64,000 nucleotides of DNA from Terriglobia bacterium (GCA_041497835.1 JBGQHF010000002.1:16500-80499), one strand, 5' to 3'; shown: positions 19,778 to 26,139, counted from the first letter of the stretch. Made by a program: numbers and translations. Notes: generated by a model not told the origin, from the sequence alone.

Positions 19778-20341
19778 CTAGTGGCTCGGTTTGTCGTTCG
19801 GTCCACCGTTGGAACCCGAAGCAAGCAGCGTTCGAATCGCCGCTTCAAAGGTCTCACGATCCCCGGCACCGAAGTAGTGGCCGATCTGTCTTCCATCCGC
19901 AGCGTAAAAGAAAGAGGCGGGAAGGGATCCATTCCAGGCGGCGTTGACGGCCCGCACGAATTCGTCGTTCTTTCCCGCGCGCTTGCGGTAGTTCGGAAAG
20001 ACCGGCTGATGGCGCGCCAGGAACCGCCGCACCAGGATCATTTCGCCGTCGTCATCGAGGCTGACGCCGACAACGTGCAGACCTTTCGGTGCGTATTGTT
20101 TTGCGAGCTGGTTGAGGAGCGGGTATTCGTCGCGGCAGGGTTCGCACCAGGTAGCCCAGAAATTCACGAGAAGCGCCTTGCCGCGATACTTCTCGAGGAG
20201 TTGCTTGTACCCCTGCTCGTCGATCAGCTCCGGGTCGCGGGGAGCCTTTGCCTGCGGTGCCGCCAGCGCAGCCGCGGCAGCCAACAAAAGAACCACGCCA
20301 AGCCAAGTCCGGTTTCTCACAGTGATCTCCGTCCCTGGCAT
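19778..20341 (-). CDS. TlpA-family thiol-disulfide oxidoreductase
   Basis: Signal peptide; LLVNFWATWCEPC; LPAS. Confidence 0.88.
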   Translation of the reverse strand: MPGTEITVRNRTWLGVVLLLAAAAALAAPQAKAPRDPELIDEQGYKQLLEKYRGKALLVNFWATWCEPCRDEYPLLNQLAKQYAPKGLHVVGVSLDDDGEMILVRRFLARHQPVFPNYRKRAGKNDEFVRAVNAAWNGSLPASFFYAADGRQIGHYFGAGDRETFEAAIRTLLASGSNGGPNDKPSH

Positions 20342-20361
20342 TCTATCCACTCGCGTCACAG

Positions 20362-20377
20362 TTGAGAATCTGATTCC
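20362..20377 (+). repeat. attL core
   Basis: TTGAGAATCTGATTCC, identical to 24847-24862 (18/19 match if extended by 3 nt). Confidence 0.88.
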
Positions 20378-20438
20378 TCCGTCTAAAACCCCGCCCAAAC
20401 AAAGGCCCGAAGCAACACGGTGTCCAACAGGTGTCCAG

Positions 20439-20759
20439 ATGCTCAAAAGATACGGTAAGTGGATGGCCGACTGGCGGGACCAACACGGCAAGCGCCACAG
20501 GAAAGCCTGCCGCTCGAAGACCGCCGCCGCGCAACTCGGTGCGAAGATGCGCCGATGCGAAGCAGCAAAAAAAGACCAGCCCTCGGGGACATCGGCCAAA
20601 TCCTCACGACGTGGGCGCAAGGCTGGCCGCCGAACACCGCGAACCGCCAAGTCGCGCTCGAACTCACCGCGGAAATCGGCCACCTACAACCGCGCCAACT
20701 CAGCAGCTTCATCGCAGAAGCCTTCTTCGCAAAATGGCGAACACGCTACTCGCCCATGA
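20439..20759 (+). CDS. Integrase arm-domain-like ORF (zero frame); possible N-terminus of a frameshifted integrase
   Basis: MLKRYGKWMADWRDQHGKRHRKACRSKTAAAQ resembles arm-type DNA-binding domains; the A7 run at 20567-20573 joins it to the catalytic frame by a -1 shift. Confidence 0.65.
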   Translation: MLKRYGKWMADWRDQHGKRHRKACRSKTAAAQLGAKMRRCEAAKKDQPSGTSAKSSRRGRKAGRRTPRTAKSRSNSPRKSATYNRANSAASSQKPSSQNGEHATRP

Positions 20760-21403
20760 CGCTCTACACACGCCGAGCCATCTACCAACGACTTCTCGGT
20801 GTCCTCACGCAGTACGGCGCACCGCCCATCAAACTCAGCAAGGTCAGAAAACCAGAACCACGCGGCGTCACCGCAACGCAGGAAGAAATCCAGAAACTTC
20901 TAGGCGCAGCGACGCCGGCACTCCGACTCTTCATCATCCTCTGTTGGCAGCTCGCCCTCCGAAGAAGCGAAGCCCTGGCCGTCACACCGCTGTCCTACGA
21001 CGACAAAACCCATACAGTCTGCATCCGGACCAAAGGCGGAAAGATGCGACGCATCCCGCTCACCAGCGACGCGGAAGAAATGATCCGCGTCGCCAGCAAA
21101 TCCGCAGCAGACCCCTCCGAAAGCTGCGTCTCCATCCTCAACGGAAGGCCGATGAAGCGCATGGACAAACGCTGGTGGCAGCTAACGAAGAAATGCAACC
21201 TCACTCACATCCACCCCCACGACCTCCGCAGAACCACCGCGACGAATCTCTACCGCACGACCCACGACATCCGGGCCGTGCAGCAGTACCTCGGACACAC
21301 ACAACTGGTGTCCACAACCCACTACCTCGCGCCACTCTCCGAGGAGCAGCTGCGCGGGATGCACCAACTCCTCAACTTCCACGGAAAGGGAGCGCCCAAC
21401 TGA
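20555..21403 (+). CDS. Tyrosine recombinase/integrase, core-binding and catalytic portion
   Basis: LALRRSE (R), RTKGGK (K), HPHDLRR (HxxR), LGH...STTHY (H, Y); all catalytic residues present. Confidence 0.92.
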   Translation: MRSSKKRPALGDIGQILTTWAQGWPPNTANRQVALELTAEIGHLQPRQLSSFIAEAFFAKWRTRYSPMTLYTRRAIYQRLLGVLTQYGAPPIKLSKVRKPEPRGVTATQEEIQKLLGAATPALRLFIILCWQLALRRSEALAVTPLSYDDKTHTVCIRTKGGKMRRIPLTSDAEEMIRVASKSAADPSESCVSILNGRPMKRMDKRWWQLTKKCNLTHIHPHDLRRTTATNLYRTTHDIRAVQQYLGHTQLVSTTHYLAPLSEEQLRGMHQLLNFHGKGAPN

Positions 21404-21585
21404 TGGACACCAACAAACACATGACGGACCCGGAAGCCTTCATCGCACTCGGCGACCTACTGCTAGACAACTTCGACCCACAGGACACCATGCACGGCAT
21501 CCTCAGCGACAAAAGGGTGGACGCCATCCTGACCGCGCAGCGTGCCCTCGTGGAACGCATCGCGCGCAACACCCCCATAGGCTAG
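21403..21585 (+). CDS. Element hypothetical protein (60 aa)
   Basis: TGATG overlap with the integrase stop; MDTNKHMTDPEAFIALGDLLLDNFD. Confidence 0.65.
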   Translation: MDTNKHMTDPEAFIALGDLLLDNFDPQDTMHGILSDKRVDAILTAQRALVERIARNTPIG

Positions 21586-21593
21586 AGGACACC

Positions 21594-21782
21594 ATGACGA
21601 ACGTCGCAGACCAAAGATGGATAGTCCGCATCACCTGCGGACCATGGGCCATCCGCGAACTCGTCAACGCCCCGGACCAGCGCATCGCCGCAAACCGCGC
21701 TCTGCAACTCTTCAACCACAAATTCGACCCGGACACCGCGATGACCATCACGGTGTCCCTCCAGCAGGAGCCGCACACATGA
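21594..21782 (+). CDS. Element hypothetical protein (62 aa)
   Basis: RBS-like AGAGGACACC directly before the ATG. Confidence 0.7.
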   Translation: MTNVADQRWIVRITCGPWAIRELVNAPDQRIAANRALQLFNHKFDPDTAMTITVSLQQEPHT

Positions 21783-21937
21783 TTGCCGTCTACTACGTCA
21801 AGCTCCGCAAACCAACACCACCAGCGCGGCCGCACGACAACTGCGCCTGCCGCCACGTCCGGCTACACCACGGGCCGAAACGCGGCCCCTGCACCATCAC
21901 GAACTGCCCCTGTCCGCACTTCAAGAGGACACCATGA
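21779..21937 (+). CDS. Element Cys/His-rich micro-protein (52 aa), putative zinc finger
   Basis: ATGA overlap; CACRHVRLHHGPKRGPCTITNCPCPHF. Confidence 0.65.
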   Translation: MIAVYYVKLRKPTPPARPHDNCACRHVRLHHGPKRGPCTITNCPCPHFKRTP

Positions 21938-22152
21938 GCCGCCGCACCTACCGCTGCGTAATCGAGTGGAACCACCGAAAGTGGGGTCCACAAATGCAGA
22001 AGAGCGTGGCGGAAGGTACCTCGATCCGCCGCGCCATCAACAACGCACTCCTGGCCTTCTTCTCGGACACCAGCCAGCGAGAGCATCGCCGCGACGCCCA
22101 CGCCCACATCGAAATCAAGGCGTGGCGCGTCAAGAAAGAAGCCGCGAAGTGA
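21934..22152 (+). CDS. Element hypothetical protein (72 aa)
   Basis: AGAGGACACC before the ATG; ATGA overlap. Confidence 0.7.
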   Translation: MSRRTYRCVIEWNHRKWGPQMQKSVAEGTSIRRAINNALLAFFSDTSQREHRRDAHAHIEIKAWRVKKEAAK

Positions 22153-22373
22153 CGCCACTCGACGCGCTAGAAATCGCAGCCACCGTCCTGATCGCACTCT
22201 GGTGCGGTCAGACCATCGTGCACATCACCCGAACCGCCATCCGAGAGGACACCGCGACGAAACTCCAGCAAGAGGCAGAGCACGGCGCAACCAAACGCCA
22301 CGTCCGCGACGCCCACGGTCAAGGACACCAAGAAGTCAAACCACCAACACCCAAAGAAAGGAGGACCCCTTGA
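22149..22373 (+). CDS. Element single-TM protein (74 aa)
   Basis: GTGA overlap; LEIAATVLIALWCGQTIVHI hydrophobic segment. Confidence 0.6.
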   Translation: MTPLDALEIAATVLIALWCGQTIVHITRTAIREDTATKLQQEAEHGATKRHVRDAHGQGHQEVKPPTPKERRTP

Positions 22374-22531
22374 ACGAATACACAGTGACCATCAGCGACG
22401 GAATCCTCTCCATCCCGCAAACCGTCACAGCCGAAACCCACAAGGCCGCCGCCCTCGAAGCCCTGACCCATCTCGACGAATCGAAGCTCGACCCAGCGGC
22501 CGACCTCATCATCAACGTCACCACTCCCTGA
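22370..22531 (+). CDS. Element hypothetical protein (53 aa)
   Basis: TTGA overlap, AGGAGG upstream; MNEYTVTISDGILSIPQTVTAE. Confidence 0.6.
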   Translation: MNEYTVTISDGILSIPQTVTAETHKAAALEALTHLDESKLDPAADLIINVTTP

Positions 22532-23598
22532 GCGACCGCAGCGGCGTGCAGGGCTGAGAAGCGCCAGCACGCCGCCGCTCGTCTCACGGAGCCGCAGCGG
22601 CATCGGCGTGCCATCGGCGCATCGCCACGGGCCGCAAGAGGAGCGAGCATGCGGCCCGCGCTCGCGCTGGAAGAAGCACGCCTCACGCCGCTGCTGGTCC
22701 TCGGCCCTCGACCAGCGGTGTCCATCGCCGGACAAATCTCAGAGTTGCGCAGCTGTAAAAAGTGGATGCCTGCGCGCGGCACGCGTTCGGCCGCAAATCG
22801 CTTCGCTGCGTCCTCCGCCGTCGGACAGCCGCGCGAGAATCCCGCGCGGTTCTCGACCTTCACTAGTGCGGTTGCGGCGTCGCAGCATGTCGGTCGCCGC
22901 GCAAAAACAAAAGCGCGCGTCGCCCGCCCTGCGCGCCGCCGCGTCTTCCGGCACGCTCCGCCCCACGCCGTACCGCTCTCCGCACGGCGTGGGGCCCGCG
23001 TCGCGGCGGTCCTCGGCATTCGGCGCGCCCGCATCATCGAAGAACGTTATGAAGGATGCGGGCAAACGCGCCGAAAGCCTGTGGGCCGCGCCCGCGCAGA
23101 ACCAGCGCGGTCGCCGGTTCGTGTCCGTGCCGGAACGGGCCGCGCGGCAGCACCCGCAAAAGAGGGCGGGTGTCATGGCCGCGCGGCCCCGCGCCCCGTG
23201 CATCTCCCCTCGTCCGCAGATCGCCGCTCGTCTGTGCGGGCCACCATAGCGGGCGCGGCCTTCTGCCGCGCCCTGGTGTCCCGCAGCTCGCGGCGTTTTT
23301 TGTTGCGGCGGCTGTCCCGCCGCCGTTCGCGTCTCTATCCGTCCTCGTGTTCGGTCAGGGTCTCCACGGGGCGCGGTCCGTTCCGGCCCGGCCAACGGAT
23401 TATTGAAGAGAAAGAAACACCATCGCCCCGCGCGCCGCAGATCGAGCGATGCGGCGCGCGATGTTGCAGCCTGGGCGACCGCGATCGCGGCTCCTGGCTG
23501 GCGGGGAGCCGCGTTCGCGCTACAATCCCCCACAGCAACAGCCAACCGCTCACTGATCGGAGAGCAACCGCCCGCCACACCACGGCGGGCGGCTCCCC
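22532..23598. other. About 1.06 kb hairpin-dense, probably non-coding region inside the element
   Basis: At least 13 perfect 6-11 bp stems, e.g. 22961-22971/22984-22994, 23138-23148/23178-23188, 23429-23439/23450-23460, 23568-23576/23584-23592. Confidence 0.7.
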
Positions 23599-23919
23599 AT
23601 GACGCCCGCAGAACGCCAGCGCCGCTATCGACAGAGGCACCAAGACGAAGAGAAAAACCGTCGAGCCTCACCCCACCACAAGGAAACTCTGGCGCGCTGC
23701 AAAGCCCGCCGCGACCCCAACCGCGATCGCGAGCACAAACAAGAGCTCTACTTCCGCTTCCACGGCCACCACCACTCCGGATGCAACGCTCTGCAACTCA
23801 AAACGCCGCGCCTGTCATGGCTGGACACCGCAGGCCGCATCCACCACGACGACCTCCGCTCGGCCGAAGAAGTGATCGCCGAGCACGAAGAGAAGGAAAA
23901 AAGGGAGTCCTCACAATGA
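23599..23919 (+). CDS. Element hypothetical protein (106 aa)
   Basis: Basic helical N-terminus MTPAERQRRYRQRH; element-type codon bias. Confidence 0.7.
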   Translation: MTPAERQRRYRQRHQDEEKNRRASPHHKETLARCKARRDPNRDREHKQELYFRFHGHHHSGCNALQLKTPRLSWLDTAGRIHHDDLRSAEEVIAEHEEKEKRESSQ

Positions 23920-24224
23920 GCAAGCTGACGCCAAAAGACGCACGCAATCTCCTCGACGTTTACTTCCAGAAGGACACCAACAGCGAGACAGTCGCCGAAG
24001 CAGACCGCGACGCAAAAATCTGGCTGCGAGCGCAGACCGCAATCGTGAAAGGACACCACGCCCGCGAGCTCGCCGAAATCCACTTCGCCGACCTGTCCGG
24101 CAAAGCCACACCTACACAGCTCGAGCTACGCAACCAACTGATGAAAACAATCTGGCTGCAGGCCGAGAGCGAACAACTCGCCAGTGAGGAGGCCGCCGCC
24201 CATGCCGAAACCCACGAAACTTGA
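23916..24224 (+). CDS. Element hypothetical protein (102 aa)
   Basis: ATGA overlap with GGAG upstream; MSKLTPKDARNLLDVYFQKD. Confidence 0.7.
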   Translation: MSKLTPKDARNLLDVYFQKDTNSETVAEADRDAKIWLRAQTAIVKGHHARELAEIHFADLSGKATPTQLELRNQLMKTIWLQAESEQLASEEAAAHAETHET

Positions 24225-24417
24225 GGAGCGCCTGCAGCTGCTCGACGCCGAGCGACTCGTGCTCACCGTAGAGCTCCGCTGCGAGCTCATGCGCCAGGCG
24301 AAGAAACTCCTGCCCGCCGCGATCGCGCAGGCGCGCGCGAAGAAGGGAAGCCCCGCGCTGCTCCGAATCATCACCCGCCTGGCCATGAGGCCCGCCAACA
24401 TCGAGAGAAGGCACTGA
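24202..24417 (+). CDS. Element hypothetical helical protein (71 aa)
   Basis: GAGGAGG upstream; MPKPTKLEERLQLLDAERL. Confidence 0.65.
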   Translation: MPKPTKLEERLQLLDAERLVLTVELRCELMRQAKKLLPAAIAQARAKKGSPALLRIITRLAMRPANIERRH

Positions 24418-24846
24418 GAGCGCCGAGCGCGAAGCGCGACCGCGCCCTCAGCTCAACCAAATCCGAAAAACCGTGGGACCTCACACCCACGACCCAAAAT
24501 CGAGCGCCGCCGCTGACGTCGTGGAAGTCAACTCACTTCACTTCCAAACAACACCGCGCCTCGGGCGGCCCGGCCAGATCGGCTAGCTGTCCGGGCCGCT
24601 GCTACTCGGCGCAGATCCCCAGCTCGACCCTAAACGACCGATAATCGCCCAAAGCGCCGACCGACAAACACGCTGTCACGCACAAACCACCACCCCACCA
24701 CCCTGCCGGTCCCCGACCCGCCCCGACGGACACCAAACCCGCCAAGTGTCCAACAAACCGCTGGACACCGCAGCGAAAAGAGCGTAGACCGATAGCACAG
24801 ATGGACACCGCAGCCTATCGGACCGCAAGAGGCAGGGGCAATAGAT

Positions 24847-24862
24847 TTGAGAATCTGATTCC
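24847..24862 (+). repeat. attR core
   Basis: TTGAGAATCTGATTCC, identical to 20362-20377. Confidence 0.88.
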
Positions 24863-24875
24863 CCCCGCGTAGAAT
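24847..24875 (+). promoter_or_regulatory. Sigma70-type promoter for ferredoxin, overlapping attR
   Basis: TTGAGA (24847-24852), 17 nt, TAGAAT (24870-24875). Confidence 0.55.
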
Positions 24876-24991
24876 CAGGAGAGTCGGCTTGTTCCACCCA
24901 GCGGAGACGTGCTATAAAAGCCGTTTCGCCGGCAGGACTTCCGTCTGGAGAAGCCGCCGATTTGACCGGACCACGCTAAAGGAGATTCCTG

Positions 24992-25258
24992 ATGGCTTAC
25001 GTGATTGCCGAACCGTGCATCGGCACAAAGGACACCGCGTGTGTGGACGTCTGCCCGGTGGATTGCATCCACCCGCGCAAGGACGAGCCGAATTTCGAGA
25101 GCGAGACGCAGCTCTACATCCATCCGACCGAGTGCATAGACTGCGGAGCGTGCGTGCCGGTCTGCCCCGTCACCGCGATCTTTGCTCTGGAAGACCTGCC
25201 GGAGAAGTGGCAGAACTTCACGCCGATCAACGCGGATTGGTTCGCAAAGAAGGTCTAA
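24992..25258 (+). CDS. 2[4Fe-4S]-type ferredoxin
   Basis: [17 protein letters not shown] and [12 protein letters not shown]. Confidence 0.95.
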
Positions 25259-25342
25259 GACATCCTCGATCCGGGCGCGGATTCGCGCTCGATTTTGGCG
25301 GCGTGCCCAGGCACGCCGCATTTTCTTTTTGGATGGATTGGC

Positions 25343-25801
25343 CTAGAGATCGAGCCGAGCCAAACTTTCGCCGCGCGCCATGCCGCCAAGCGTGCGCTTG
25401 CGCACGTCGTCAAAGGTCGTGGCGAAGAGGATTTTTTCGACCGCCTCCTGAACATCCTGCCACACCTGTTTCAGCCCGCAGCTCTCGGTTTCCGGGCAGA
25501 CATATCCCCGGGATTCCTCGTTCTCCGAACAACTGGATTGCGTGAAATCGCCGTCCACGACCCGGAGCACCTCGCCCACGGTGATTTTCTCCGGCGACCG
25601 CGCCAGGGTGTAGCCGCCGTGCACCCCGCGCCGGCTGTCCAGCACGCCGCCGCGCCTCAATTCCAGAAGGATGTGTTCGAGGTACTTGAGAGGAATGCGA
25701 TGCCGCCGCGCGATCTCCTGGATGGTGACGACTTCCGGATAAAGCAGCGCCAGGTGCAGGACGGCCTTGGTTGCGTATTCGCCTTTCGCTGTGACGCGCA
25801 T
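25343..25801 (-). CDS. Rrf2-family transcriptional regulator
   Basis: KGEYA, IPLKYLEHILLELRRGG, SRRGVHGGY; three C-terminal Cys. Confidence 0.92.
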   Translation of the reverse strand: MRVTAKGEYATKAVLHLALLYPEVVTIQEIARRHRIPLKYLEHILLELRRGGVLDSRRGVHGGYTLARSPEKITVGEVLRVVDGDFTQSSCSENEESRGYVCPETESCGLKQVWQDVQEAVEKILFATTFDDVRKRTLGGMARGESLARLDL

Positions 25802-25941
25802 GGAAGAACCGAATGAGGCTCCAGCCTTTCACACCACTCGCCGCGTGTCAATCTTCGGCGCCGCCTGGTGCTGTCCTAACTCGTGTGATGGGCAAGCCAA
25901 AGGCCGCGAATATCAATTGGCGCGGTAAAAATGGAATCTAT

Positions 25942-26139
25942 CTAGCGGACGCAGACAAGCCGCTGGGGTTTCCACACTAAAAAGGTGAGTGCTCCAATGA
26001 AGAGGGCTGCTTCAATCCAATCTTTGGCTGGATGGCCCTTAAATAAGAAAGCAGTGGCGATGAAGGCAGATGCCCAAACAAGCGACCCGATAACGAGCGA
26101 TGTTCCGTGCGTTTTAGATTTAGACATCATAAAAGGCAT
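25942..26139 (-). CDS. Small two-TM hypothetical protein
   Basis: Two hydrophobic segments; lower GC. Confidence 0.45.
   Translation of the reverse strand: MPFMMSKSKTHGTSLVIGSLVWASAFIATAFLFKGHPAKDWIEAALFIGALTFLVWKPQRLVCVR

What the first reader, a model, noticed from the sequence alone, without database searches (positions are those of the whole stretch)
20439..21403. Integrase split at a slippery A AAA AAA run: possible programmed -1 frameshift
Seen: ATG 20439 opens an arm-domain-like peptide (MLKRYGKWMADWRDQHGKRHRK...) that ends at 20759 after 106 aa. The catalytic domain is in the -1 frame. The two frames meet at GCA AAA AAA GAC (A7, 20567-20573); a -1 slip gives KKRPALGD... and a ~321 aa complete integrase. 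CCAGCC at 20576 has a complementary GGCTGG about 45 nt downstream, which could form a stimulator. Known: IS1/IS3 use A-rich heptamers to make a DNA-binding repressor plus a rarer fused transposase; this is unusual for tyrosine integrases. Inference: the short product could act as a directionality or repressor factor. An internal ATG at 20555 offers a two-gene alternative.
Basis: partly seen in the sequence, partly recalled or inferred. Interest (0 to 1): 0.7.

Follow-up and report, generated by a model that had tools for sequence, protein, structure and literature searches.

The report
Frameshift-dependent integrase of small mobile element
The integrase of a 4.5-kb integrated element is encoded in two reading frames joined at a slippery A AAA AAA site. 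The same split recurs in about 97% of more than 150 divergent relatives, so it is most likely a programmed -1 ribosomal frameshift and not an error. I found no report of this for a tyrosine integrase in the papers I could search.

Summary
ATG 20439 opens a 106-codon ORF, A7 lies at 20567-20573 in register A_AAA_AAA, and the PF00589 catalytic part lies in the -1 frame and ends at 21403. A -1 slip gives a 321-aa integrase.

The split is not an error or a pseudogene:
- Three independent metagenome assemblies carry the identical A7.
- All 27 relatives' loci that I read as DNA (33-70% protein identity) have the arm domain in frame 0 and the rest in frame -1.
- All 27 have a slippery motif in register at the junction. 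Most are A_AAA_AAA; the others are A_AAA_AAG, A_AAA_AAC, C_CCA_AAA and G_GGA_AAA, and one has only the A_AAA tetramer.
- Runs as short as A4 argue against transcriptional slippage and phase variation.
- Of the 150 best arm-domain clusters, 146 are short ORFs. The few unsplit relatives are colinear with the predicted fusion.

The slip site sits exactly at the end of a confidently modelled 45-residue arm-binding domain.

The gene belongs to a 4.5-kb element (attL 20362-20380, attR 24847-24865). Arm-type repeats (GGTGTCCA) abut the int start codon.

Any role of the short product remains inference. This is a new variant of a known mechanism.

The parts
20362..20380 (.). attL core: left copy of the 19-bp direct repeat TTGAGAATCTGATTCCTCC
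   Evidence: (family D17): second copy at 24847-24865, 18/19 identical; exact repeats of 14-24 bp start 75-85 nt upstream of the int ATG and recur 3.3-5.1 kb downstream in 9 relatives' loci.
20419..20437 (+). Two tandem arm-type repeats GGTGTCCA (20419-20426 and 20430-20437), 11-nt period, ending 2 nt before the int ATG
   Evidence: the motif occurs 9 times in the window against 1.07 expected, and 8 of the 9 lie inside the element; a tandem pair at the same position in nearly all relatives, and both units change together (GGTCTCC, GGTCACC, GGACACC, GGTCGCC, GGTGTCAC).
20439..20759 (+). Frame-0 ORF (106 codons plus stop): the product of standard decoding, a 45-residue arm-binding domain followed by a 61-residue basic, disordered tail
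   Evidence: AlphaFold model: residues 1-45 have pLDDT 93-96, strands at 2-4, 7-13 and 19-24, and a helix at 27-45. Residues 46-106 have pLDDT 56-68 and no secondary structure. In relatives the frame-0 tail after the slip site is 2-77 codons long.
20567..20573 (+). Slippery heptamer A_AAA_AAA (frame 0: GCA AAA AAA GAC), the proposed -1 slip site, encoding K44-K45 at the end of the arm-domain helix
   Evidence: an in-register X_XXY_YYZ motif at the homologous place in relatives. Lys codons elsewhere in these genes are 229 AAA to 230 AAG.
20573..21403 (+). -1 frame part of int (276 codons plus TGA): core-binding and catalytic domains, read after the slip starting with AGA (R46)
   Evidence: PF00589 E 9.5e-25. 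PDB profile hits to XerC-like, XerA and XerD. R175, K199, H261, R264, H287 and Y296 are invariant or nearly so in 19 fused relatives. PHROG phrog_1 integrase aligns residues 4-313 of the fused protein.
20555..20557 (+). ATG in the -1 frame (start of the 282-aa gene call P0001), the 'two-gene' alternative
   Evidence: Not conserved: an ATG within 6 codons of the slip site in only 4 of 24 loci, and no ATG/GTG/TTG at all in 10 of 24.
20574..20626 (+).
   Evidence: Family level: the 50-nt window that starts right after the heptamer is the most stable of 283 positions along the gene (mean -19.3 against -11.4 kcal/mol). Mean z against shuffles is -1.06, and about 0 at control offsets. Against: no RNAalifold consensus, covariation not significant, window z +1.38 and +0.96.
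21404..24700 (+). Cargo of the element: small + strand ORFs (for example 21404-21585, 21594-21782, 21934-22152, and ORFs with stops at 24224 and 24417) with no recognised family
   Evidence: no Pfam or PHROG match reaches a curated threshold. Relatives carry similar strings of 50-130-aa ORFs with no family match.
24728..24809 (-). Arm-type sites on the other arm: GGTGTCCA on the - strand at 24762-24769 and 24802-24809, GGTGTCC on the - strand at 24728-24734, and a degenerate AGTGTCCA on the + strand at 24745-24752
   Evidence: The same order of sites, (-)(+)(-)(-) then core then (+)(+), with the same spacings but a different unit, is seen in L238 and L088.
24847..24865 (.). attR core: right copy of the direct repeat (TTGAGAATCTGATTCCCCC), followed by a ferredoxin gene from 24993
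   Evidence: The element of L228 (Int 70% identical) also lies next to a Fer4 gene and has a related core, TTGAGAAACCGATTCC....

Best explanation
The gene at 20439-21403 is the integrase of a 4.5-kb integrated element (20362-24865). It is expressed by a programmed -1 ribosomal frameshift.

How it works. Ribosomes start at ATG 20439 and translate a 45-residue arm-binding domain. Most then continue in frame 0 and release a 106-residue protein, which is the arm domain plus a disordered basic tail. A minority slip back one base on A_AAA_AAA (20567-20573), where the two tRNA-Lys re-pair. These ribosomes continue in the -1 frame and make the 321-residue heterobivalent tyrosine integrase: arm domain, core-binding domain and catalytic domain.

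Shown by comparison: the layout, the in-register slippery motif, and its conservation.

Inferred, not shown: the frameshift itself, its efficiency, and the role of the short product. My preferred reading of that role is as follows. The short product binds the GGTGTCCA arm-type repeats, two of which abut the int start codon. It thereby limits int expression and/or competes with full-length Int at the att arms, as OrfA/InsA do in IS3/IS1 elements.
For: 1. The sequence is real. Three independent sediment-metagenome assemblies at 13-19x are identical over 20300-21500, with no gaps.

2. The split is conserved. tblastn of the fused protein places the arm domain in frame f and the rest in frame f-1 in every family locus that holds both parts. 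Across 27 loci read as DNA, at 33-70% protein identity, the junction carries an in-register slippery motif: 22 A_AAA_AAA, and one each of A_AAA_AAG (L084), A_AAA_AAC (L242), C_CCA_AAA (L238), G_GGA_AAA (L240) and the tetramer-only C_CAA_AAA (L239). Elsewhere in these genes AAA and AAG are used equally (229:230), so the AAA AAA pair is held by selection.

3. Database scale. About 62 catalytic-part homologs all lack the arm domain. All 48 word-index hits of the arm profile are 47-81 aa. An exhaustive HMMER scan of 1.84 billion representatives gives 506 clusters at E<=0.001, and 146 of the 150 best are not full-length.

4. The fusion is meaningful. 19 conceptual fusions of 320-334 aa align without a break through ...KK(S/R/T)P..., with the catalytic R-K-H-R-H-Y set conserved. 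The rare unsplit relatives P0249 and P0224 are colinear with the window's fusion across the junction. phrog_1 aligns residues 4-313.

5. The slip site is at a domain boundary. The modelled helix 27-45 ends at K44-K45.

6. The elements are mobile. In 9 loci, exact 14-24-bp direct repeats flank elements of 3.3-5.1 kb at different chromosomal sites. A working integrase must therefore be made.

7. Independent initiation of the -1 frame is not conserved.
Against: - There is no direct evidence of a trans-frame protein or of frameshift efficiency. No RNA runs hold this sequence, and only contigs, not raw reads, were available.
- A conserved stimulator is not established. RNAalifold finds no consensus, covariation is not significant, and there is no conserved upstream SD-like sequence (6 of 27).
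- The window's own downstream region folds no better than shuffles.
- Most sites are homopolymeric A7-A8, so some contribution from RNA polymerase slippage cannot be excluded for those.
- Two in-frame relatives with the KK motif exist (P0249, P0226). I could not read their DNA.
- The proposed role of the short product rests only on the position and co-variation of the repeats.
Confidence: 0.74

Rival explanations
1. Transcriptional slippage. RNA polymerase inserts one extra A while copying the A7 run, so a fraction of mRNAs carry A8 and encode the fused integrase in one frame. The ribosome does not shift.
For: 22 of 27 sites are A7-A8 homopolymers. One added A gives exactly the same 321-aa protein. 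Sharma et al. 2014 (PMC4066793) note that AAAAAAA can give indels in mRNA by transcriptional slippage.
Against: The motif is always in X_XXY_YYZ register with frame 0, which is irrelevant to RNA polymerase. Five lineages have runs too short for efficient slippage but still have a ribosomal slippery motif in register: A4 in C_CCA_AAA and G_GGA_AAA, A5 in L239, and A6 in A_AAA_AAG and A_AAA_AAC. From my own knowledge, efficient bacterial transcriptional slippage usually needs runs of about 8-9 or more.
Confidence: 0.12
2. DNA-level phase variation. Replication slippage switches the run between A7 (integrase off) and A8 (integrase on) in a subpopulation of cells.
For: The homopolymer is at the junction. 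Two relatives, P0249 (351 aa) and P0226 (297 aa), are in frame through a KK motif, as an A8 allele would be.
Against: None of the 27 loci read as DNA is in the 'on' state, including four with A8 in which the extra A belongs to the preceding codon. Three independent assemblies all carry A7. The non-homopolymeric heptamers cannot phase-vary. Only 2-4 of the 150 best clusters are full-length.
Confidence: 0.05
3. Two separate proteins. The arm peptide and a core-binding plus catalytic protein that starts at ATG 20555 are made independently and work as a non-covalent pair, or the arm peptide serves only as a regulator.
For: A -1-frame ATG lies 6 codons before the slip site in the window, and within 4-6 codons in three other loci. 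Gene callers use it (P0001, P0002).
Against: 10 of 24 loci have no ATG/GTG/TTG in the -1 frame between the last stop and the slip site. In 3 loci that frame is open for only 6-9 codons and holds no ATG, though 2 of these have a GTG 5-6 codons upstream. The next Met is 21-138 codons downstream, inside the conserved core-binding domain. Conservation in the -1 frame begins exactly at the slip site (K45 and P47 are invariant). Unsplit relatives show the two parts as one chain.
Confidence: 0.05
4. Sequencing error or a recent inactivating 1-bp deletion, making the gene a pseudogene.
For: Homopolymers are error-prone, and a single extra A would restore one ORF.
Against: The same sequence appears in three independent assemblies. 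The same split occurs in relatives down to 33% identity and in hundreds of clusters. Catalytic residues and arm-domain residues are conserved on both sides of the junction. The att repeats are intact at 18/19.
Confidence: 0.02

Closest known systems
IS1 (InsA / InsAB') and IS3-family (OrfA / OrfAB) transposases made by -1 programmed ribosomal frameshifting on A_AAA_AAC / A_AAA_AAG
   Same: A -1 slip on an A-rich X_XXY_YYZ heptamer. The upstream frame encodes the small DNA-binding part that recognises the element's ends. Standard decoding gives that part alone, and the rarer frameshift fuses it to the catalytic part. Sharma et al. 2014 (PMC4066793) list A_AAA_AAA, A_AAA_AAG and A_AAA_AAC IS clusters as proven cases.
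   Different: Here the catalytic part is a tyrosine recombinase (PF00589), not a DDE transposase. The element integrates site-specifically, with a 19-bp core and arm-type sites, and has no inverted-repeat ends. A regulatory role for the short product is documented for IS elements but only inferred here.
Heterobivalent tyrosine integrases of the lambda Int / Tn916 Int type (N-terminal arm-binding domain, core-binding domain, catalytic domain)
   Same: The fused protein has the three-part layout and the R-K-H-R-H-Y catalytic set. Its N-terminal domain is modelled as a three-stranded sheet plus helix. Repeated arm-type sites lie on both sides of a short core.
   Different: Those integrases are encoded in one frame, whereas this family needs recoding to join arm domain and enzyme. 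Pfam does not recognise the arm domain. Its only similarity to solved structures is a weak AP2-type hit (E 0.36; Foldseek probability 0.85 but E 1.3).
Escherichia coli dnaX (tau/gamma) -1 frameshift on A_AAA_AAG
   Same: Lys-Lys slippery heptamer of the same class. One member here (L084) has exactly A_AAA_AAG. G+C-rich hairpin potential lies just downstream at family level.
   Different: In dnaX the shift truncates the protein, and both an upstream SD-like sequence and a defined stem-loop stimulate it. Here the shift extends the protein. No SD-like element is conserved and no defined stem is established.
FseA of ICEMlSymR7A: an excision activator of an integrative element made by +1 programmed frameshifting (PMC4755241; mentioned in PMC5009743)
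   Same: Ribosomal frameshifting gates the mobility of an integrating element by keeping a key protein rare.
   Different: There it is a +1 shift in a transcriptional activator of the excisionase on a 502-kb conjugative element. Here it is a -1 shift inside the recombinase gene itself on a 3-5-kb element.

Membership tests
Tyrosine recombinase / phage integrase (PF00589) | Significant match to the catalytic-domain profile | tested here: met
   PF00589 E 9.5e-25, 87.8 bits against a cut-off of 27.1. Profile hits to XerC-like 4a8e (4e-23), XerA and XerD. phrog_1 integrase 7e-34.
Tyrosine recombinase / phage integrase (PF00589) | Catalytic residues R-K-H-R-H/W-Y present | tested here: met
   R175 (18 of 19), K199, H261, R264, H287 and Y296 are conserved in the alignment of 19 fused proteins, and all are present in the window's protein.
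Heterobivalent (arm-binding) integrase, lambda Int / Tn916 Int type | Separate N-terminal arm-binding domain (three-stranded sheet packed on a helix) | tested here: met
   AlphaFold model: strands at 2-4, 7-13 and 19-24, helix at 27-45, pLDDT 93-96. This is a prediction only. Similarity to solved AP2-type domains is weak.
Heterobivalent (arm-binding) integrase, lambda Int / Tn916 Int type | Arm-type DNA sites, distinct from the core, on both arms of attP | tested here: met
   GGTGTCCA occurs 9 times against 1.07 expected. Two copies lie 39 nt right of the attL core, and two to four lie 38-119 nt left of the attR core in the opposite orientation. The layout is conserved with a different unit in L238 and L088.
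Heterobivalent (arm-binding) integrase, lambda Int / Tn916 Int type | The arm domain binds those sites | not testable with these tools
   Needs EMSA or footprinting. The only hint is the concerted change of both tandem units between elements.
Programmed -1 ribosomal frameshift site | X_XXY_YYZ heptamer (or Z_ZZN tetramer) in register with the incoming frame | tested here: met
   A_AAA_AAA in frame-0 register. All 27 loci have an in-register motif. Motif definition from PMC4066793 (abstract).
Programmed -1 ribosomal frameshift site | Site and two-frame layout conserved among diverged homologs, with both frames under protein-level constraint | tested here: met
Programmed -1 ribosomal frameshift site | Stimulatory element (downstream stem-loop or pseudoknot, or upstream SD-like sequence) | tested here: inconclusive
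   The most stable 50-nt window of the gene starts right after the heptamer, and mean z is -1.06. Against that: no consensus structure, covariation not significant, window z +0.96, and an SD-like sequence in only 6 of 27.
Programmed -1 ribosomal frameshift site | Trans-frame protein detected; efficiency measured | not testable with these tools
   No RNA or proteome data are available.
Transcriptional slippage site | Long homopolymeric run (about 8-9 or more) as the conserved feature, independent of reading-frame register | tested here: not met
   Run lengths range from A4 to A8 while the register is invariant.
Phase-variable homopolymer (contingency locus) | Both on and off run lengths found among strains or reads | tested here: not met
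   0 of 27 loci are in frame, and three assemblies all carry A7. Minor variants in raw reads could not be examined. Two in-frame relatives exist only as protein records.

The most novel reading that the evidence does not exclude
One gene encodes both a recombinase and its own antagonist or regulator. The frame-0 product, an arm-binding domain alone, occupies the co-evolving arm-type repeats, two of which sit against the int start codon. This would repress int and block synapsis. The frameshift frequency would then set the integration/excision rate of a whole family of 3-5-kb acidobacterial elements. That would be convergent evolution, in a tyrosine integrase, of the IS1/IS3 'DNA-binding repressor plus rare fused enzyme' logic.
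Probability: 0.4. Interest if true: 0.85.

Novelty: new variant of a known kind. Interest (0 to 1): 0.78.

Why it matters
Programmed -1 frameshifting is well known in IS transposases, dnaX, phage tail chaperones and retroviral gag-pol. I found no report of it in a bacterial tyrosine integrase. The GeneTack survey (PMC3711429), the 2016 recoding review (PMC5009743), the E. coli heptamer survey (PMC4066793) and four full-text searches did not mention one.

If it is confirmed, three things follow:
- It adds a large, old recoded gene family: 506 clusters at 50% identity.
- It shows that site-specific integrases can be throttled in the same way as transposases.
- It provides a natural system in which the isolated arm-binding domain is made alongside the full enzyme. 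That bears directly on how arm binding controls directionality.

There is also a practical point. Gene callers currently annotate every member as a truncated 'integrase' plus a 'hypothetical protein'. Annotation pipelines therefore miss the real product.

Tried and rejected
- RNAalifold on 24 aligned downstream regions gave no consensus structure.
- A hand-defined 14-bp stem (GCCCA...UGGGC type) was 62.8% paired against 33-48% when slid, but covariation was not above shuffles. I do not claim a defined stimulator.
The window's 67 nt give z +0.96.
- An upstream SD-like stimulator is present in only 6 of 27 loci.
- RNA evidence: no RNA run holds the sequence.
- Empty-site or circular-junction contigs: none in four runs.
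A mixed alignment misplaced the short ORFs and was dropped. Only the frame-0 product was modelled.
- Foldseek of that model against the PDB gave nothing significant.
- The arm profile against PDB sequences gave only E 0.36 to an AP2 domain.
- IMG/VR holds no close relative (at most 31% identity, catalytic part only), so a phage origin is not supported.
- Pfam and PHROG scans of the small cargo ORFs found nothing.
- L241 (P0116) is an arm-domain remnant with no integrase downstream and was left out.
- My first statement that no unsplit relative exists had to be softened after the exhaustive search.

Full report
**Observation.** The sequence is as described.
- ATG 20439 opens a frame-0 ORF of 106 codons with its stop at 20757-20759.
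- The only A7 run of the region, 20567-20573, reads GCA AAA AAA GAC in that frame. This is the canonical X_XXY_YYZ register.
- The -1 frame is open across the run and continues to TGA 21401-21403. It carries the phage-integrase catalytic domain (PF00589, E 9.5e-25).
- A -1 slip, or equivalently one extra A, gives MLKRYGKW...CEAAKK|RPALGDIGQ..., a protein of 321 residues.
- An A7 run alone is unremarkable here: 7 in the window against 6.5 expected.

**Is the sequence real?** The stretch 20300-21500 is found in at least 18 sediment-metagenome runs. Contigs from three of them, at 13-19x, are identical over the whole stretch with no gaps. These are contigs, so minor variants cannot be excluded.

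**Is the split conserved?**
- A search with the fused protein found about 62 family members at 36-70% identity. None covers the N-terminal arm domain. Several begin with the same 'nonsense' reading of the arm region in the -1 frame.
- I fetched their DNA from species genomes, JGI metagenomes and contig look-ups.
- tblastn places the arm domain in frame f and the rest in frame f-1 in every family locus that holds both parts.
- At the junction, 22 loci have A_AAA_AAA in frame-0 register, including four A8 runs whose extra A belongs to the preceding codon.
- L084 has A_AAA_AAG, L242 A_AAA_AAC, L238 C_CCA_AAA and L240 G_GGA_AAA. L239 keeps only the A_AAA tetramer.
- Elsewhere in these genes Lys codons are 229 AAA to 230 AAG, so the AAA AAA pair is selected.
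- The conceptual fusions are 320-334 residues. They align without a break through ...KK(S/R/T)P..., with K45, P47 and the catalytic R-K-H-R-H-Y set conserved.

**Database scale.**
- An arm-domain profile found 48 proteins in the 5.8-billion-protein collection, all 47-81 residues long.
- An exhaustive HMMER scan of 1.84 billion representatives found 506 clusters at E<=0.001 and 156 at E<=1e-10. Of the best 150, 146 are not full-length.
- Four of the 150 are long. P0249 (351 aa) and P0226 (297 aa, with an internal deletion) are in frame through the KK motif. P0224 (366 aa) is a more distant unsplit relative without KK. P0164 re-enters the integrase frame about 60 residues later.
- P0249 and P0224 align colinearly with the window's predicted fusion across the junction. 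The -1 fusion therefore reproduces a natural single-chain protein.

**Which mechanism?**
- The invariant feature is a ribosomal slippery motif in register, not the length of a run. Sites with only A4-A6 still satisfy X_XXY_YYZ.
- That argues for ribosomal -1 frameshifting, and against RNA-polymerase slippage or DNA phase variation as the conserved mechanism.
- None of the 27 loci is in the in-frame state.
- Independent initiation of the second frame is not conserved. Ten of 24 loci have no ATG/GTG/TTG between the last -1-frame stop and the slip site, and only four have an ATG within six codons.

**Stimulators are unresolved.**
- The 50 nt that begin right after the heptamer are the most stable window of 283 along the gene, averaged over 24 loci (-19.3 against -11.4 kcal/mol).
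- They fold better than dinucleotide shuffles on average (z -1.06, about 0 at control offsets).
- However, there is no alignment-wide consensus and covariation is not significant.
- The window's own sequence is the weakest of the set (z +1.38 and +0.96).
- No upstream SD-like sequence is conserved.

**The two products.** The AlphaFold model of the frame-0 product is confident for residues 1-45: a three-stranded sheet plus a helix at 27-45, pLDDT 93-96. The model is disordered from residue 46 to 106. The slip site therefore lies exactly at the end of the arm-binding domain. In relatives the frame-0 tail is 2-77 codons long and is unlikely to matter. Similarity of the domain to solved AP2-type domains is weak.

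**The element.**
- A 19-bp direct repeat, TTGAGAATCTGATTCC(T/C)CC, lies at 20362-20380 and 24847-24865. It bounds a 4.5-kb element between a thioredoxin-like gene and a ferredoxin gene.
- Equivalent exact repeats of 14-24 bp start 75-85 nt upstream of the int ATG and recur 3.3-5.1 kb downstream in nine relatives. They lie at different chromosomal sites, so these elements have integrated repeatedly.
- GGTGTCCA occurs 9 times in the window against 1.07 expected, and 8 of the 9 are inside the element.
- Two tandem copies with an 11-nt period end 2 nt before the int ATG. Inverted copies lie 38-119 nt inside attR.
- The tandem pair is present at the same place in nearly all relatives, and both units change together from element to element.
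- The whole (-)(+)(-)(-) then core then (+)(+) layout recurs in L238 and L088 with a different unit.
- I read these repeats as arm-type sites that co-evolve with the arm domain. Because two of them abut the start codon, autoregulation by the arm-only product is a reasonable hypothesis, but it is untested.
- No close relative is in IMG/VR. The cargo ORFs match no family.
- All named relatives are Acidobacteriota/Terriglobia.

**Comparison with what is known.** In function this is the IS1/IS3 arrangement: a DNA-binding part by standard decoding and a rarer fusion to the enzyme by a -1 slip on an A-rich heptamer. Here that arrangement is transplanted onto a lambda-Int-type heterobivalent tyrosine integrase. 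The protein meets the membership tests for a tyrosine recombinase, and by prediction those for an arm-binding integrase. The site meets the sequence and conservation tests for a -1 PRF site. Proof of a stimulator and of the trans-frame protein is missing. I found no mention of frameshifting in a bacterial tyrosine integrase in the GeneTack survey, the 2016 review, the E. coli heptamer survey, a 2025 preprint, or several full-text searches. A literature search of this kind cannot prove absence.

**Verdict.** It is a new variant of a known mechanism and deserves experimental follow-up.

Noticed in passing
window 20362-24865: A complete 4.5-kb integrated element bounded by a 19-bp direct repeat (20362-20380 and 24847-24865, 18/19 identical). 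It lies between a TlpA-like thioredoxin gene on the - strand and a ferredoxin gene (24993-25258). The 70%-identical relative L228 sits next to a ferredoxin gene too and has a related core.
   Followed up: yes
window 20001-26000; relatives' loci, first 3 kb from the int ATG: The coding strand of the element is strongly A>T and C>G (window AT skew +0.28, GC skew -0.17). The flanks are not skewed. The same holds in all 20 relatives checked (AT skew +0.11 to +0.38). The cause is unknown; a single-stranded or rolling-circle stage is one idea.
   Followed up: partly
L088, L236, L238 (upstream of int): In these short contigs the DNA upstream of int carries the other-arm sites (L088, L238) and the element's skewed composition (all three). 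They look like the excised circular form (attP) or a circular episome, not an integrated copy.
   Followed up: partly
window 21584-21601, 21924-21941, 22244-22261: AGAGGACACC(ATG) is repeated three times at 320-340-nt spacing. Two copies are the SD-plus-start of small ORFs. GGACACC is the reverse complement of the arm-site unit GGTGTCC. Counting both orientations, the 7-mer occurs at least 12 times in the 4.5-kb element. Whether these are extra protein-binding sites, or RNA that pairs with the int leader, is unexplained.
   Followed up: no
C-terminus of int: window 21380-21403, and relatives (alignment A3, columns 340-355): Most family members end in a nearly invariant ...F(H)SEVKQ*, even at 35% overall identity. 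The window (FHGKGAPN*) and L228 (FEAQPGEPAN*) differ. This may be a functional C-terminal tail or an overlapping DNA signal.
   Followed up: no
L004 (JACQDE010000086.1), int: This relative has Gly in place of the first catalytic Arg (ALALGQNE instead of LALRxxE), yet keeps the split, the A7 site and 24-bp att repeats. It may be an inactive or divergent copy.
   Followed up: no
window 22600-23600: This stretch of the element is the most G+C-rich (0.66). It has no convincing + strand ORF, only long overlapping ORFs in several frames. It may be non-coding, or it may hold a gene that I did not resolve.
   Followed up: no
protein records P0001-P0062 and P0071-P0118: Public gene calls split every family member into a truncated 'integrase' (about 230-300 aa, with a start codon chosen ad hoc) and a 47-81-aa 'hypothetical protein'. 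This is a systematic annotation error for the family.
   Followed up: yes
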